In this document: one piece after another, positions 6,001 through 10,158 of the stretch
Position numbering within the stretch: the stretch's first letter is position 1
Layout: each line of letters begins with the position of its first letter
Origin: a virus
Taxonomy: Duplodnaviria > Heunggongvirae > Uroviricota > Caudoviricetes
IMG/VR virus record: IMGVR_UViG_2671180417_000002
Location: 1-10,158 of that record
Length of the DNA stretch: 10,158 nt
Reading direction: 5' to 3' (one strand)
Position numbers: made by a program

Positions 6001-9000
6001 TAGGAATATCCCTTTTCGTACTTTTAGTACGCATTATGGTTGAACTGAAAGTTTTTGCAAGTGCTTTAGTATCGTACTCATGGTTCAGAATGAAAAAGTG
6101 CGCAAAGAATTCGCCCAGCGGCTAGCGCAAGCCTGTAAAGAAGCTGGTCTTGATGAACATGGTAGGGGTATGGCCATAGCCCGTGCCCTTTCTCTTTCGT
6201 CCAAAGGCGTTAGCAAATGGTTTAATGCTGAGTCTTTACCGCGTCAGGAAAAAATGAATGCGCTTGCGAAATTTCTAAACGTTGATGTTGTTTGGCTTCA
6301 GCACGGCACTTCGTTAAATGGAGCGAATGATGAAGATACTCTTTCATTTGTTGGCAAATTAAAAAAAGGGTTAGTGCGCGTGGTTGGTGAGGCAATTCTT
6401 GGTGTTGATGGTGCCATCGAGATGACCGAAGAGCGCGATGGGTGGCTCAAAATTTATAGCGATGATCCAGATGCCTTTGGTCTTCGTGTGAAAGGAGACA
6501 GCATGTGGCCCAGAATAAAATCAGGAGAATATGTACTCATTGAGCCTAACACCAAAGTATTCCCGGGGGATGAGGTGTTTGTCAGAACCGTTGAAGGACA
6601 CAACATGATCAAGATTCTTGGCTATGACAGAGATGGAGAATACCAATTTACAAGCATCAACCAGGACCACAGGCCAATAACGTTACCTTATCATCAAGTA
6701 GCAAAGGTGGAGTATGTGGCTGGTATTCTGAAGCAATCTCGTCATCTGGATGACATCGAGGCAAGGGAGTGGCTGAAAAGTTTGTGACTTCAAGTACGCG
6801 ACAAGCCCCGTCCTTCAGGGCGTGGAGGATGTCAAAATAACTTTAAATAACACACCACCAACATTTAACACATTGAATTAAAAAACCTACAATATTTGAT
6901 GAGAGGCGTTATGGAACCGGTCAAAATTAAACCATCTGTGGATTATATTGAAACCTATGCGGACTTCGCTAGTTTTGCTCCACTACCGGGAGCGGAAAAA
7001 AATCTCATTTGTATACATTTTATCGCAAACAAGTCAATACCTGCGGTACTATCCCAAAATGATATACCAGATCAACCAGGTAGAGCGAATATGCAGATAG
7101 GCTCTGTAAATGAACTCAATCAGCAATGCACTGTGATAATGCCAATGGCACAACTAAAGGCTCTTCAAGAGAATATAGTTCTTCTTTTCGAACAATTAGA
7201 GGCACAAAACTCTAATGGAGCGAAGTCGTAATGCAACAACCGGAAGAAGTAGGTGATTTAACTATTACTTACAAAACATCAAGTATTGTTAAACCACTGC
7301 AAGTTTCCCTGAATAACGTTAATACTCGCGATTTCATGATGTTCATGGAAACAGCAAAAGGTAATCTGTTTTCTACGCCTATTTCCTCTTATTCACCAAA
7401 AAACATGGTGGATGATGCGACCAATTCCCAGCTAACTGCTACAATCGTAGATAAAGGAGGGGTTGCCGATTGTAAAGGACAATCTAATGTTATCCCACCG
7501 TACGAGGAAACTCCTATACAGGGAACCGCAATGTCCGATTTGAGCAGAAACGAAATACAGGCACTTCTGAAGGCAAATAAAGCTGAAGTGGATGCAGTGG
7601 CCTCAAAAATGCAGGCTGATATGGCCAAATGGCGTGAACTAATGGCTTCAGATATAAAGGAGATGAAGCATTTAGTTGTTACTCAGCACGAACAAATCAA
7701 CAGTCGTCTGGACATACAATCGAGTAGAATTGAGAGTGCCCTTGACTCCCAATCAAAAAAGATCGATGCAGCTCTTTCTGTTCAAGAGGCAAAGTTAGAA
7801 GGTAAGCTTAGTGATGTTAAGCTTGATATAATCAAATGGGCCCTTGGCTTGCCAGCATTAGCATTTGCTGTATATAAAATCTACGGATTGCTCTCTGGAG
7901 TCTCAACCCCCTAATACACACCCGGCCTCAGTGCCGGGTTTTCTTTGCCCAACGTTCGCCCACCTAAAAACACATAATCGATTGTATTTATTGAAAAACT
8001 GATAGATACAACTTGCTAAACAGTGCAACCCTGATCCCTGCCCCATCACCTTCATCCTCAACATTTACAAAAATAAAATACCTTATATATCAAAACCATA
8101 TCTCGAGAAAACGAATGAACAACAAAATTTCGTACTTATGGTTCTTGATTATATCGAACCAATAGTTCATTATTATCACCATCAGCAGGACGCTGGAAGC
8201 CAAACGGAACAGACTGGCAGGCTCTTTAAACAACGTCGAACTCTCGACTACGTGGCTGAAAAGCCAGATCACCCAACCACATAAGCTGTGGGATGCAATG
8301 CCGAAGCAACCGTCTCAGGAGGAGCTTCGAGATTGCATCGCCAAAGTTTATTCGGGAGGAATCTATGTCCAGAAAAACAGAATTTAAAGGCACCGCAGCT
8401 TCTCGCCGTAGAGCTCGTCGCGCAAACCTGCAAAGTCAGGAGTCGATTAGCTCCGACAAGCTACACAGGCCAACCCCTTCACGAGTGGTCTTGCAATGCA
8501 AGCGCAAACCAGCAATGAGAGCAGAAGTTATAACTCTGACAACGTTGACCAGAAAATATGAAGGTTCAACTTGTCTTCCAAACGTAGCCATTTACGCTGC
8601 AGGCTACCGTAAATCCAAACAACTGACAGCAAGATGACTTGTGTTGGTCGCCAGAAAATGAAATTAGGCAGCAAACCACTTATTTGAGAGGAATTAATAT
8701 GTCATCAATCCGCTTAACTACGAGAATGAAAGAGGAAATCGCTCGTAACGCTTTAATTAAGTCCGGGGTGTTCACTGAACTTGAAGAAGTAACAAAGTTA
8801 AAGAACCAGCTTGCACTTGACGCCAGAGTTATTGCGTTTGGCGGGAAAAAGAAAACCGAAGAAGTGGACCAGCTGGCATCAAAGTTAATGGCTGCAAGTG
8901 AGGAACTTCAAAAGCTGGGATGTTCATTTTACTCATGCGATGTCAGTTCATGTTCGATTTATCTGACTGTATCTGGAAGAAGGGTTGGCTGGCATTCATA

Positions 9001-10158
9001 CGGAAAAGACGGCAACGGTGAAGATATATTGCTCCCTACCCCCGACAAAGATAAATGCATGTTTGACGCAGAACACAAAATAACAAAAAGGTTTGATGAA
9101 ATCTGCGCATTGCAACAAAAACTTGAAGCCAGGAAAAAGGATATAGAATCAAACGTATGGGCTGCTTTGAACTCAGTCACAACAGTTAAGCGACTTATTG
9201 AAGTTTGGCCTGAAAGCAAAGAGTTGCTACCAAAAGAAGCAGATAAAGCAAGTGCAGCACTTCCTGCTTTACGGGTAGAAGATTTGAATAAGATGATTGG
9301 ACTTCCTTCCGAGGCCGCATAATCGGCCTTTATTTTTGGCATAAACAACAGAATAAACACTGCACTGTGTATTCATTCCAACGAGTGAATACACGGAGCA
9401 ATGTCGCTCGTAACTAAACAGGAGCCGACTTGTTCTGATTATTGGAAATCTTCTTTGCCCTCCAATGTGAGGGCTTTTTTATATGCATACCAATAACGCT
9501 TCACTAGAGGCGTTTTCGTTATGTGTAAATAAATAAGGAGCACACCATGCAATATGCCATTGCAGGGTGGCCTGTTGCTGGCTGCCCTTCCGAATCTTTA
9601 CTTGAACGAATCACCCGTAAATTACGTGACGGATGGAAACGCCTTATCGACATATTTAATCAGCCATGAGTTCCCAAAAATGGATAAAACACTTATGGCT
9701 ATCCAGACTAAATTCACTATCGCCACTTTTATTGGTGATGAAAAGATGTTTCGTGAAGCCGTCGACGCTTATAAAAAATGGATATTAATACTGAAACTGA
9801 GATCAAGCAAAAGCATTCACTAACCCCTTTCCTGTTTTCCTAATCAGCCCGGCATTTCGCGGGCGATATTTTCACAGCTATTTCAGGAGTTCAGCCATGA
9901 ACGCTTATTACATTCAGGATCGTCTTGAGGCTCAGAGCTGGGCGCGTCACTACCAGCAGATCGCCCGTGAAGAGAAAGAGGCAGAACTGGCAGACGACAT
10001 GGAAAAAGGCCTGCCCCAGCACCTGTTTGAATCGCTATGCATCGATCATTTGCAACGCCACGGGGCCAGCAAAAAAGCCATTATCCGTGCGTTTGATGAC
10101 GATGTTGAGTTTCAGGAGCGCATGGCAGAACACATCCGGTACATGGTTGAAACCATTG

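What the first reader, a model, noticed from the sequence alone, without database searches (positions are those of the whole stretch)
8638..9340. Unknown 207-aa gene immediately after N, in the PL-operon accessory slot (ral/sieB position)
Seen in sequence: a well-supported ORF (ATG 8699, GAGAGG Shine-Dalgarno, intrinsic terminator overlapping its stop) with no recognisable family, cysteine-containing (CSFYSCDVSSCS) and visibly more AT-rich than lambda-like neighbours. Established knowledge: in lambda the region between N and cIII carries accessory genes such as ral (restriction alleviation) and sieB (superinfection exclusion), and the equivalent region varies widely among lambdoid phages. Inference: this gene is likely a moron with an anti-defence or defence role, or some other early host-takeover function.
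Basis: partly seen in the sequence, partly recalled or inferred. Interest (0 to 1): 0.6.

Follow-up and report, generated by a model that had tools for sequence, protein, structure and literature searches.

The report
Nmad5-family early gene after N
The "unknown" gene after the phage antiterminator N is a real gene of the already catalogued but functionally uncharacterised Nmad5 family, which across many phages sits among early DNA replication and recombination genes, so it is more likely an early DNA-metabolism or host-takeover factor than a lysogen-expressed defence gene.

Summary
The ORF is real: ATG 8699 to TAA 9322, 207 aa, GAGAGG Shine-Dalgarno, pN/pS about 0.21. "No recognisable family" is wrong. 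It is a full-length member of Pfam PF18757, Nmad5 (231.9 bits), and RefSeq already names a 99.9%-identical copy. The cysteine motif is not conserved and the AT-richness is marginal.

About 4% of complete E. coli genomes carry the gene, always at the head of the PL operon. It follows at least five different N alleles or a Nun-like ORF, and lies upstream of cIII, kil and interchangeable recombinases.

The wider family has about 2,700 clusters at 50% identity. It occurs in virulent and temperate phages, mostly inside replication, recombination or thymidylate modules.

The AF2 model (pLDDT 91) is a helical bundle with a β-hairpin. It has no known fold relative and no catalytic signature. Its C-terminal motif (T-x-K-R-L…WPE…LN..GLP) is strongly conserved.

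The only experimental data are from Dhillonvirus: the gene is dispensable and could not be cloned. A K→E change at the residue equivalent to R165 escapes Tmn defence.

Best reading: an early, non-catalytic binding protein acting on DNA metabolism or host takeover. An anti-defence role remains possible; a lysogen-expressed moron or a modification enzyme is unlikely.

The parts
8145..8193 (+). Probable PL promoter (TTGATT 8145-8150, 17-nt spacer, CATTAT 8168-8173) and transcript start; tentative
   Evidence: ATCAGCAGGACGC at 8181-8193 occurs once in the window (0.01 matches expected by chance). From my own knowledge it is identical to the start of the lambda PL transcript. The hexamers were read; they match 8 of 12 consensus positions, one short of the scan threshold.
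8221..8248 (+). Probable nutL: boxA-like GCTCTTTAAACAA (8221-8233) and a boxB-like hairpin GTCGAACTCTCGAC (8235-8248); tentative
   Evidence: Sequence read. The hairpin was flagged (minus-strand entry 8248-8235) and folded (-5.7 kcal/mol, z 0.01, so not significant by itself). The assignment rests on position between PL and N, by analogy with lambda (established knowledge).
8365..8637 (+). Antiterminator N, 90 aa
   Evidence: PF25694 N_peptide, E 1.6e-31; phrog_271 'anti-termination protein N-like'.
8638..8688 (+). Conserved junction: the disused 3' end of a lambda-type N gene (…CVGRQKMKLGSKPLI*), whose TGA (8685-8687) overlaps the Nmad5 Shine-Dalgarno
   Evidence: In lambda-N-type relatives N reads through this stretch and stops 11 nt before the Nmad5 ATG. 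About 1,100 E. coli genomes without the Nmad5 gene, including BL21(DE3), match only query bases 1-51 at 98-100% identity.
8686..8691 (+). Shine-Dalgarno GAGAGG, 7 nt upstream of the ATG
   Evidence: TTATTTGAGAGGAATTAATATG is conserved in 79 of 80 related loci; the remaining locus has one substitution in the spacer.
8699..9322 (+). Nmad5-family protein gene, 207 aa plus stop
   Evidence: PF18757 full length, 231.9 bits; phrog_1965; RefSeq name; pN/pS 0.21; AF2 models with pLDDT 82.5 and 91.1.
9311..9338 (+). Intrinsic-terminator-like hairpin (GAGGCCG-CATAAT-CGGCCTT) plus T-tract, overlapping the stop codon. It is the first such site downstream of PL/nutL and so a candidate tL1 equivalent.
   Evidence: -11 kcal/mol, z -1.5. 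Present in most relatives. No plus-strand terminator-like site lies between 7939 and 9311.

Best explanation
Shown: window 8699-9322 is a genuine protein-coding gene under purifying selection. Its product is a full-length, stand-alone member of the Nmad5 family (Pfam PF18757).

Inferred expression. The gene is transcribed from PL together with N. It lies upstream of the first terminator-like hairpin, so it is probably made in the immediate-early phase, before or independently of antitermination. In phages with a lambda-type N, the N stop codon overlaps the Nmad5 ribosome-binding site, which would allow translational coupling. The gene should be silent in the lysogen.

Inferred mechanism. The protein is a compact, apparently non-catalytic helical bundle with a β-hairpin. 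It most likely works by binding, not by chemistry. The proposed binding surface is the invariant C-terminal region (T162-x-K164-R165-L166…W170-P171-E172…L196-N197..G201-L-P203), whose last ~25 residues are conserved but flexible. The proposed target is a conserved component of DNA replication, recombination or nucleotide metabolism, of host or phage origin. Binding would bias the cell toward phage DNA synthesis at the very start of the lytic programme.

The gene is dispensable under laboratory conditions and harmful to the host when expressed. It is an early accessory DNA-metabolism or host-takeover factor, not a lysogenic-conversion moron.
For: Identity. Selection.

Expression logic. The PL-like start is at 8181. 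No plus-strand terminator-like site lies between 7939 and 9311, and no promoter-like site lies before the gene. The SD is invariant, and the N stop codon overlaps it in lambda-N-type loci.

The position is conserved regardless of partners. The gene follows lambda-type N, three other N_peptide alleles, a Nun-like ORF, ral or a zinc-finger ORF. It precedes cIII and kil, then Bet/Exo/Gam, Erf, RecT, Rad52-like or Sak4-like recombinases. In Klebsiella and Serratia prophages with no N ORF it is the first early-left gene.

The family is embedded in DNA-metabolism modules. DUF2800 PD-(D/E)XK nuclease, Enc34 SSB, Nmad5 and PolA occur in order in about 30 of 78 diverse viral contigs and in a Providencia prophage. 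An N4-like phage has thyA, Nmad5, PD-(D/E)XK exonuclease, primase, Sak4 and SSB. Guernseyvirinae have Nmad5, exonuclease, Gp2.5-like SSB and a polymerase. A metagenomic contig has ThyX, Nmad5 and a HAD phosphatase. Yuavirus and Bordetella CN1 place it beside the HMUDK-helical-domain protein, the dU-hydroxymethylase and PolA.

Non-enzymatic appearance. Only L166, E172 and N197 are invariant across 57 diverse members, with no His/Asp/Cys constellation. AF2 gives long helices plus a hairpin at pLDDT 91, with the conserved tail 181-207 at pLDDT 58-70. No PDB fold relative was found.

Experiments in homologues (PMC11846954). The Dhillonvirus deletion mutant is viable, and the gene could not be cloned because of apparent toxicity. 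The Tmn-escape substitution K216E/K296E maps to the residue aligned with R165 in the conserved motif. In T2 the direct Tmn trigger is RIIB, which that preprint describes as an early replisome-associated protein (PMC13001434). This is a parallel, not proof.
Against: There is no direct functional evidence for this protein or any close homologue. 'Binds a replication/recombination component' rests on gene neighbourhood and on the absence of catalytic features. Lambdoid early-left operons mix recombination genes with anti-defence genes (ral, gam, abc2), so position does not discriminate between these roles. About 96% of complete E. coli genomes, and lambda itself, lack the gene, and its patchy presence among otherwise similar lambdoid phages is a pattern typical of counter-defence genes. 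The immediate-early inference depends on a simple terminator scan that also failed to flag PL. The Tmn data are ambiguous, because deleting the gene does not relieve Tmn sensitivity.
Confidence: 0.45

Rival explanations
1. Anti-defence factor. This would be an immediate-early protein that neutralises a host immune system (a restriction-modification, abortive-infection or other system) by binding it. It would be analogous in timing to T7 Ocr and in position to lambda Ral.
For: It is the first or second gene of the early-left operon and lies before the first terminator. It sits in the slot where lambdoid phages carry ral, and next to ral in some. Presence among otherwise similar lambdoid phages is patchy, at about 4% of E. 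coli genomes. In Yuavirus it lies in the thymidine-hypermodification cluster, which is itself an anti-restriction strategy. A point mutation in a homologue changes the outcome of Tmn defence (PMC11846954).
Against: There is no similarity to any known anti-defence protein and no PADLOC hit. The family is unusually widespread and well conserved for a counter-defence gene. It has 2,671 clusters at 50% identity and a near-invariant C-terminal motif, across phages of Pseudomonas, Vibrio, Bordetella and Enterobacterales. It is typically embedded within replication modules, not in accessory islands. Deleting the Dhillonvirus gene did not alter Tmn sensitivity, so it is not an anti-Tmn factor; that phage has a separate anti-Tmn gene. 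This phage already encodes Lar, a Dam-type methylase and Gam.
Confidence: 0.25
2. Nucleotide or DNA modification protein, as the family name suggests. It would be an enzyme or obligatory subunit that modifies phage DNA or the nucleotide pool.
For: The family was named for its association with base-modification genes. The Nmad5 gene lies in the M6/SN1 cassette with aGPT-Pplase, a kinase, a radical-SAM enzyme and a PLP enzyme (PMC9476957). It has thymidylate-synthase-family neighbours in several lineages and a TGT/DpdA-like gene two genes upstream in SPN3UB.
Against: None of the partner enzymes is present in this window or in the lambdoid contexts. The enzyme table of the M6 and related thymidine-hypermodification study lists gp51-gp54 (transferase, PLP decarboxylase, radical-SAM isomerase, kinase). 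The paper did not come up in the full-text search for 'Nmad5' (PMC8989533). No conserved catalytic residues, no nucleotide-binding motif and no enzyme-like fold were found. Most family members sit in replication modules that have no modification genes.
Confidence: 0.12
3. Lysogenic-conversion moron for defence or superinfection exclusion, comparable to sieB or rex, expressed from the prophage to protect the lysogen.
For: It lies in the N-to-cIII interval where lambda has sieB. It has its own terminator-like hairpin. Its GC content is slightly below the window average. It is variably present among lambdoid phages.
Against: No promoter-like site precedes it. Its SD abuts or overlaps the end of N, so it belongs to the repressed PL transcript. 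It has no transmembrane segment and no PADLOC hit. It occurs in strictly virulent phages (N4-like, Yuavirus, Dhillonvirus). A homologue appears toxic to E. coli. The genes directly after cI (6896-7914), in the rex position, are much better candidates for such a role.
Confidence: 0.05

Closest known systems
Pfam PF18757 Nmad5 (RefSeq 'Nmad5 family putative nucleotide modification protein'; PHROG 1965)
   Same: Full-length match (profile 1-206/206, 231.9 bits). It has the same stand-alone size of about 200 aa and the same conserved N-terminal R-L-T…N-A…K motif and C-terminal T-x-K-[KR]-L…WPE…LN..GLP motif. A 99.9%-identical copy in E. coli SCU-104 already carries this name.
   Different: Nothing differs at the sequence level. 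The family name implies a nucleotide-modification role that has never been demonstrated. The lambdoid context gives that role no support, since there are no modification enzymes nearby.
Dhillonvirus Nmad5 (phages SM_S22 and SM_A8; Tmn-escape locus, Yamashita et al. 2025, PMC11846954)
   Same: Same Pfam family. The C-terminal 100 residues are 33% identical. The escape substitution K216E/K296E falls on the residue aligned with R165 in the shared motif.
   Different: The Dhillonvirus protein is about 254 aa, with a large insertion in the middle region. Its gene sits on the opposite strand between head genes of a virulent siphovirus, not in an N-dependent early operon.
Yuavirus/M6-type Nmad5 in the thymidine-hypermodification cluster
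   Same: Same family (PF18757, E 3.8e-32 to 2.7e-53), with the same C-terminal motif.
   Different: These proteins are shorter (186-187 aa). They lie beside the HMUDK-helical-domain protein, the dU-hydroxymethylase, a 5'-deoxynucleotidase and PolA. No such neighbours exist in this window.
Lambda Ral and SieB (positional analogues in the N-to-cIII interval)
   Same: Same genomic slot, downstream of N in the PL operon, and variably present among lambdoid phages.
   Different: There is no sequence or structural relationship. Ral (PF11058) co-occurs with Nmad5 instead of replacing it. From my own knowledge, SieB is a membrane protein with its own promoter; Nmad5 has neither feature.
T4/T2 RIIB as a Tmn trigger (PMC13001434)
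   Same: Both are early, dispensable phage proteins linked to the replication apparatus, and single substitutions in each abolish Tmn-mediated defence.
   Different: They are not homologous. RIIB was shown to bind and activate Tmn directly, whereas for Nmad5 only escape genetics exists and deleting the gene does not relieve defence.

Membership tests
Pfam PF18757 Nmad5 | Whole-protein HMM score above the curated gathering threshold, covering the whole profile | tested here: met
   231.9 bits against a cut-off of 27; residues 4-203 on profile 1-206/206; E 1.1e-68.
Pfam PF18757 Nmad5 | Stand-alone single-domain protein of about 200 aa | tested here: met
   The protein is 207 aa. The best 150 of 2,671 representative clusters are almost all 190-220 aa and match over their full length.
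Pfam PF18757 Nmad5 | Conserved C-terminal motif T-x-K-[KR]-L-x-x-W-P-E…L-N-x-x-x-G-L-P | tested here: met
   T162, L166, W170, P171, E172, L196, N197 and P203 are invariant in the 13-sequence cross-lineage alignment. L166, E172 and N197 are invariant in 57 diverse members.
Pfam PF18757 Nmad5 | Predicted structure resembles other family members | tested here: met
   Foldseek against BFVD returns family members as top hits: Edwardsiella phage eiAU, C130_2 and 'Nucleotide modification associated domain 5' entries, with E 4.8e-13 to 1e-4 and TM up to 0.75.
Nucleotide/DNA-modification system (the function implied by the family name) | Neighbouring modification enzymes (aGPT-Pplase, 5-hmdU DNA kinase, dU hydroxymethylase, radical-SAM or PLP enzymes) | tested here: not met
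   None is adjacent in the window or in lambdoid relatives. The only modification gene in the window is a Dam-type methylase at 1532-2083 on the other operon.
Nucleotide/DNA-modification system (the function implied by the family name) | Catalytic activity on nucleotides or DNA | not testable with these tools
   No conserved catalytic constellation or enzyme-like fold was found. The enzyme table of the M6 pathway study lists gp51-gp54 only (PMC8989533).
Lambda Ral (PF11058) restriction alleviation | Sequence membership in the Ral family | tested here: not met
   The Pfam scan of the protein gives no Ral hit. A true Ral (E 2.2e-48) lies upstream of Nmad5 in some relatives.
Lambda Ral (PF11058) restriction alleviation | Alleviates type I restriction in vivo | not testable with these tools
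   This needs plating assays.
Moron (autonomous lysogen-expressed accessory unit) | Own promoter upstream of the gene | tested here: inconclusive
   There is no promoter-like site on the plus strand in 7800-10158, but the same scan also missed PL. The 61-nt spacer is a relic of the N 3' end, and in relatives N ends 11 nt before the ATG. This leaves little room for a promoter.
Moron (autonomous lysogen-expressed accessory unit) | Terminator directly downstream | tested here: met
   Hairpin at 9311-9330 followed by a T-tract.
Moron (autonomous lysogen-expressed accessory unit) | Base composition distinct from neighbours | tested here: not met
   42.1% GC, within the 34.7-47.6% range of adjacent genes.
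Known anti-phage defence proteins (PADLOC-DB 2.0) | Match to a defence-system protein model | tested here: not met
   No family at E <= 1.

The most novel reading that the evidence does not exclude
Nmad5 would be a previously unrecognised, very widespread class of non-enzymatic phage 'first-strike' proteins. In lambdoid phages it would be made in the immediate-early burst together with N. It would use its invariant WPE…LN..GLP C-terminal docking motif to seize a universally conserved bacterial DNA-replication or repair protein. It would be this engagement that immune sensors such as Tmn detect. The 'nucleotide modification' label would then be a misnomer arising from guilt by association.
Probability: 0.25. 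Interest if true: 0.6.

Novelty: already known. Interest (0 to 1): 0.33.

Why it matters
As a sequence object this gene is already catalogued: it is in Pfam and PHROGs and has a RefSeq name, so nothing new was discovered. The value of the follow-up is corrective. It also sharpens an open question.

The family is large, at about 2,700 clusters at 50% identity. It spans temperate and virulent phages of many Proteobacteria. Its name implies an enzymatic role for which I found no evidence in sequence, structure, context or the literature.

Three observations make the lambdoid members good experimental entry points:
- They hold a fixed place at the head of the PL operon, behind interchangeable antiterminators.
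- The family is embedded in replication/recombination modules elsewhere.
- The Tmn-escape residue maps onto the invariant C-terminal motif.

HK542 and mEp235 carry a 94%-identical gene and are easy to manipulate genetically. If the protein proves to target a conserved host replication or repair factor, that would explain its apparent toxicity and its link to Tmn sensing. It would also justify renaming the family.

Tried and rejected
- PDB sequence search: nothing (best E 0.76).
- Foldseek against the PDB: no hit at E <= 0.001.
- BFVD: only other Nmad5-family proteins, none with a known function. One target labelled 'DNA polymerase A' (267 aa) is probably a mislabel.
- AFDB50 was not available.
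- PADLOC gave no hit. NCBIfam had no family near its cut-off (best E 0.056, 13.5 bits against a cut-off of 118).
- Other Pfam hits (SKA2, P4Ha_N, HIP1 and others) are sub-threshold coiled-coil noise.
- The literature search for 'PF18757' found nothing. 'Nmad5' appears in only four papers.
- The DefensePredictor paper mentions an unspecified NMAD domain only.
- The genome-contig scan failed with the diverse alignment and gave only six enterobacterial loci with the closer one.
- I considered a redox or zinc role for the cysteine cluster and rejected it, because the cysteines are not conserved.
- I considered the longer 227-aa TTG ORF and rejected it.
- I considered that about 1,300 E. coli genomes carry the gene. 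I rejected this because about 1,100 match only the 51-bp N-end junction.
- I considered a head-protein role in Dhillonvirus and rejected it, because the gene is on the opposite strand to the head genes.
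Full report
**1. What is in the sequence**

The window is a lambdoid immunity and early region, and the plus strand is the PL direction.
- A CI-type repressor lies at 6080-6787 (Peptidase_S24 plus HTH).
- Two ORFs follow in the rex position, 6896-7231 and 7231-7914, and then a strong terminator hairpin at 7920-7939.
- The transcript start ATCAGCAGGACGC lies at 8181. From my own knowledge it is identical to the start of the lambda PL transcript.
- A boxA-like GCTCTTTAAACAA and a small hairpin lie at 8221-8248. 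I read these tentatively as nutL.
- N is at 8365-8637 (PF25694, E 1.6e-31).
- The ORF in question runs from ATG 8699 to TAA 9322 and encodes 207 aa. GAGAGG lies 7 nt upstream of its ATG.
- Downstream are two more terminator-like hairpins, the cIII thermoregulator RNA (Rfam RF01804, 9534-9592), cIII, kil and gam.

The terminator is moderate: 7-bp stem, -11 kcal/mol, z -1.5.

The gene is clearly real. Against 53 distinct alleles with at least 10 synonymous differences, the median pN/pS is 0.21. The two alternative frames hold 13 and 17 stops.

**2.

The protein is not family-less. It matches Pfam PF18757 ('Nucleotide modification associated domain 5', Nmad5) over the whole profile, at 231.9 bits against a cut-off of 27. 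It matches PHROG 1965, function unknown. A 99.9%-identical gene in E. coli SCU-104 is annotated by RefSeq as 'Nmad5 family putative nucleotide modification protein', and most named homologues carry that name.

The cysteine-rich stretch is not conserved even within Enterobacterales. The GC content is 42.1%, inside the range of the adjacent genes (34.7-47.6%).

**3. Distribution and local context**

About 201 of 5,426 complete E. coli genomes carry at least 80% of the 703-bp query. The other roughly 1,100 'matching' genomes share only its first 51 bases. In relatives with a lambda-type N, those 51 bases encode the C-terminus of N (…CVGRQKMKLGSKPLI*). That N gene's TGA overlaps the Nmad5 Shine-Dalgarno, 11 nt before the ATG. 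In this window N stops earlier, at 8635-8637. Window 8638-8688 is therefore a disused N 3' end, that is, a mosaic junction.

In 80 close IMG/VR relatives the SD/start context is essentially invariant. The ORF immediately upstream varies (Pfam):

| Upstream ORF | Loci |
|---|---|
| Lambda-type N (PF11438) | 12 |
| The window's N type | 11 |
| A 933W-like N_peptide | 11 |
| A P22-gp24-like N_peptide | 5 |
| A further weak N_peptide type | 7 |
| An ORF I recognise from memory as HK022 Nun (no Pfam hit) | 8 |
| A zinc-finger ORF | 6 |
| Ral (PF11058) | 2 |

Downstream, a cIII allele starts about 225 bp after the stop in nearly all loci. Kil follows, and then one of several unrelated recombination systems: Gam-Bet-Exo, Erf, RecT, Rad52-like or Sak4-like.

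In Klebsiella and Serratia prophages the Nmad5 gene is the first gene after the CI-type repressor, and the roughly 400-bp interval holds no credible N ORF. The constant feature is therefore 'head of the early-left operon', not N itself. Ral and Nmad5 co-occur, so they are not alternatives.

**4. The family at large**

A profile search of 1.84 billion representative proteins found 2,671 clusters at 50% identity at E <= 1e-3. Nearly all are stand-alone proteins of about 200 aa.

In annotated phages, with Pfam confirmation, the gene lies in these contexts:
- In Yuavirus and Bordetella CN1 it is beside the 5-hmdU-kinase-helical-domain protein, the thymidylate-synthase-family hydroxymethylase, a 5'-deoxynucleotidase and PolA.
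- In an N4-like Klebsiella phage it is between thymidylate synthase and a PD-(D/E)XK exonuclease, primase, Sak4 and SSB.
- In a Guernseyvirinae phage it is at the start of an operon that leads to an exonuclease, a Gp2.5-like SSB and a DNA polymerase.
- In Salmonella SPN3UB it is in the nin region, two genes after a TGT-like gene.
- In a metagenomic contig it is between ThyX and a HAD phosphatase.
- In Dhillonvirus it is on the opposite strand between head genes.

I also ran a neighbour census on 78 diverse IMG/VR loci, representing 27 Nmad5 lineages at 70% identity. It found the order [300 aa] - DUF2800 PD-(D/E)XK nuclease - Enc34-type SSB - Nmad5 - (small ORF) - family-A DNA polymerase in about 30 loci. 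A CI-type repressor lay upstream on the same strand in 9 loci. That is what the data show for the family, although within E. coli-type lambdoids the position is fixed.

**5. Structure and conservation**

AF2 with 57 diverse sequences gives a confident model (pLDDT 91.1, pTM 0.80). It has three long N-terminal helices (8-72), a β-hairpin (86-100), a 32-residue helix (127-158) and short C-terminal helices.

Residues 181-207 have pLDDT of only 58-70, yet they contain some of the best-conserved positions (P189, L196, N197, G201, P203). Across 57 members only L166, E172 and N197 are invariant. Near-invariant positions are I14, A18, R43, G48, G93, T162, W170, P171, E175, L176, P178, P189, L196 and G201. 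This set does not look like an active site.

**6. Experimental knowledge**

'Nmad5' occurs in only four papers in the library.
- The SN1 genome note lists the gene as part of the M6-type thymidine-hypermodification cassette (PMC9476957).
- The enzyme table of the M6 pathway biochemistry paper lists only gp51-gp54. That paper did not come up in the full-text search for 'Nmad5' (PMC8989533).
- Yamashita et al. (PMC11846954) found that Dhillonvirus mutants escaping the Tmn defence carry K216E (SM_A8) or K296E (SM_S22) in Nmad5. Reverting the mutation restored sensitivity. Deleting the gene gave viable phage that remained Tmn-sensitive. The gene could not be cloned, apparently because it is toxic.

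I mapped the mutated lysine onto this protein. It is the second K of …NTDKKLIKAWPE… and aligns with R165 in T162-V-K-R165-L166-I-E-V-W170-P-E172. The extra 80 N-terminal residues annotated in SM_S22 overlap the scaffold gene on the other strand and are probably spurious.

A 2026 preprint shows that the direct Tmn trigger in T2 is RIIB, which it describes as an early replisome-associated protein (PMC13001434). This is a suggestive parallel only.

**7. Most likely mechanism**

The first two steps below are shown or read from the sequence. The last two are inferred.
1. The gene is part of the PL transcript. No promoter-like site precedes it, and its SD abuts or overlaps the end of N.
2. No terminator-like site lies between nutL and 9311. 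The hairpin at its stop codon is therefore the first terminator downstream of PL. The protein should be made with N in the immediate-early phase and be silent in lysogens.
3. The protein binds a conserved partner, protein or DNA, in replication, recombination or nucleotide metabolism. Binding would go through the R165/WPE surface and the C-terminal tail.
4. This helps phage DNA metabolism or host takeover. The function is dispensable in the laboratory and harmful to the host.

I put this at about 0.45. The rivals are anti-defence (0.25), a true modification function (0.12) and a lysogen-expressed defence moron (0.05). The caveats are listed under 'evidence against'.

**8. Verdict**

The gene is real and the slot is correctly identified. 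However, it is an already catalogued family member whose function is unknown, not an orphan. The 'moron with a defence or anti-defence role' reading is at best one of several possibilities, and its defence half is unlikely. Interest is modest. The main open question is what this very widespread and possibly misnamed family does.

Noticed in passing
window 8638-8688: The spacer between N and the Nmad5 gene is the out-of-use 3' end of a lambda-type N gene. It is shared at 98-100% identity by about 1,100 E. coli genomes, including BL21(DE3), that lack the Nmad5 gene. The mosaic junction sits exactly at this phage's N stop codon. In lambda-N-type relatives the N stop codon overlaps the Nmad5 Shine-Dalgarno, which could allow translational coupling.
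   Followed up: yes
window 6896-7231 and 7231-7914 (+), terminator 7920-7939: Two overlapping ORFs lie directly after cI in the rexA/rexB position and are closed by a strong terminator. The 227-aa product is coiled-coil (weak CCDC90-like hit) and its C-terminus looks hydrophobic by eye. It matches phrog_14825 and has a weak PADLOC hit to HEC-07 (E 0.009). The 111-aa product has no family. These are better candidates than the Nmad5 gene for a lysogen-expressed defence or exclusion module.
   Followed up: partly
window 1532-2083 (-) and 2456-2692 (-): The nin region encodes a Dam-type N6-adenine methyltransferase (PF05869, E 3.6e-62) and a Lar restriction-alleviation protein (PF14354, E 1.8e-10). 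Together with Gam, this phage therefore already carries recognised anti-restriction and anti-nuclease functions.
   Followed up: partly
window 9323-9546: The 224-bp gap between the Nmad5 gene and cIII holds two further terminator-like hairpins: 9457-9474 (-11.1 kcal/mol, z -3.7) and 9495-9514 (-9.9 kcal/mol, z -2.9). They lie just upstream of the cIII thermoregulator RNA (Rfam RF01804, 9534-9592, 88.5 bits). This resembles a tL2-like terminator cluster that N-modified polymerase must read through.
   Followed up: partly
window 8145-8248: A probable PL (TTGATT-17-CATTAT, transcript start ATCAGCAGGACGC at 8181) is followed by a boxA that looks close to the rrn-type consensus (GCTCTTTAAACAA). A 5-bp-stem, 4-nt-loop hairpin stands in place of a lambda-type boxB. 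The nut site of this N allele may therefore differ from lambda's.
   Followed up: partly
L007 (E. coli D1, NZ_CP010134) 3129-3989: A ral gene is inserted between the antiterminator-position ORF and the Nmad5 gene, so Ral and Nmad5 co-occur in one operon. Two IMG/VR loci show the same arrangement.
   Followed up: yes
L189 (phage SM_S22, PP627283) 5005-6009 (-): The annotated 334-aa Nmad5 CDS overlaps the head-scaffold gene on the opposite strand by about 200 nt. Its first 80 residues have no counterpart in SM_A8, LM40P1 or any other family member. The true start is probably the MRLTKDIK… methionine. This would explain the K296/K216 numbering difference in PMC11846954.
   Followed up: partly
database proteins P0006, P0010, P0013, P0049, P0061; Stx2a phages: Many prophage copies, especially in Stx2a-converting phages, lack the first 33-55 residues or have them replaced by unrelated sequence, while the C-terminal two-thirds stay 92-98% identical. 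This could be recombination inside the gene or decay. The conserved N-terminal R-L-T…N-A…K motif is lost in these forms.
   Followed up: partly
L126 3173-4075 and equivalents in about 30 IMG/VR loci: A conserved 300-aa protein with no Pfam family precedes the DUF2800 nuclease in the DUF2800 / Enc34-SSB / Nmad5 / PolA replication module. It is another uncharacterised core component of that module.
   Followed up: no
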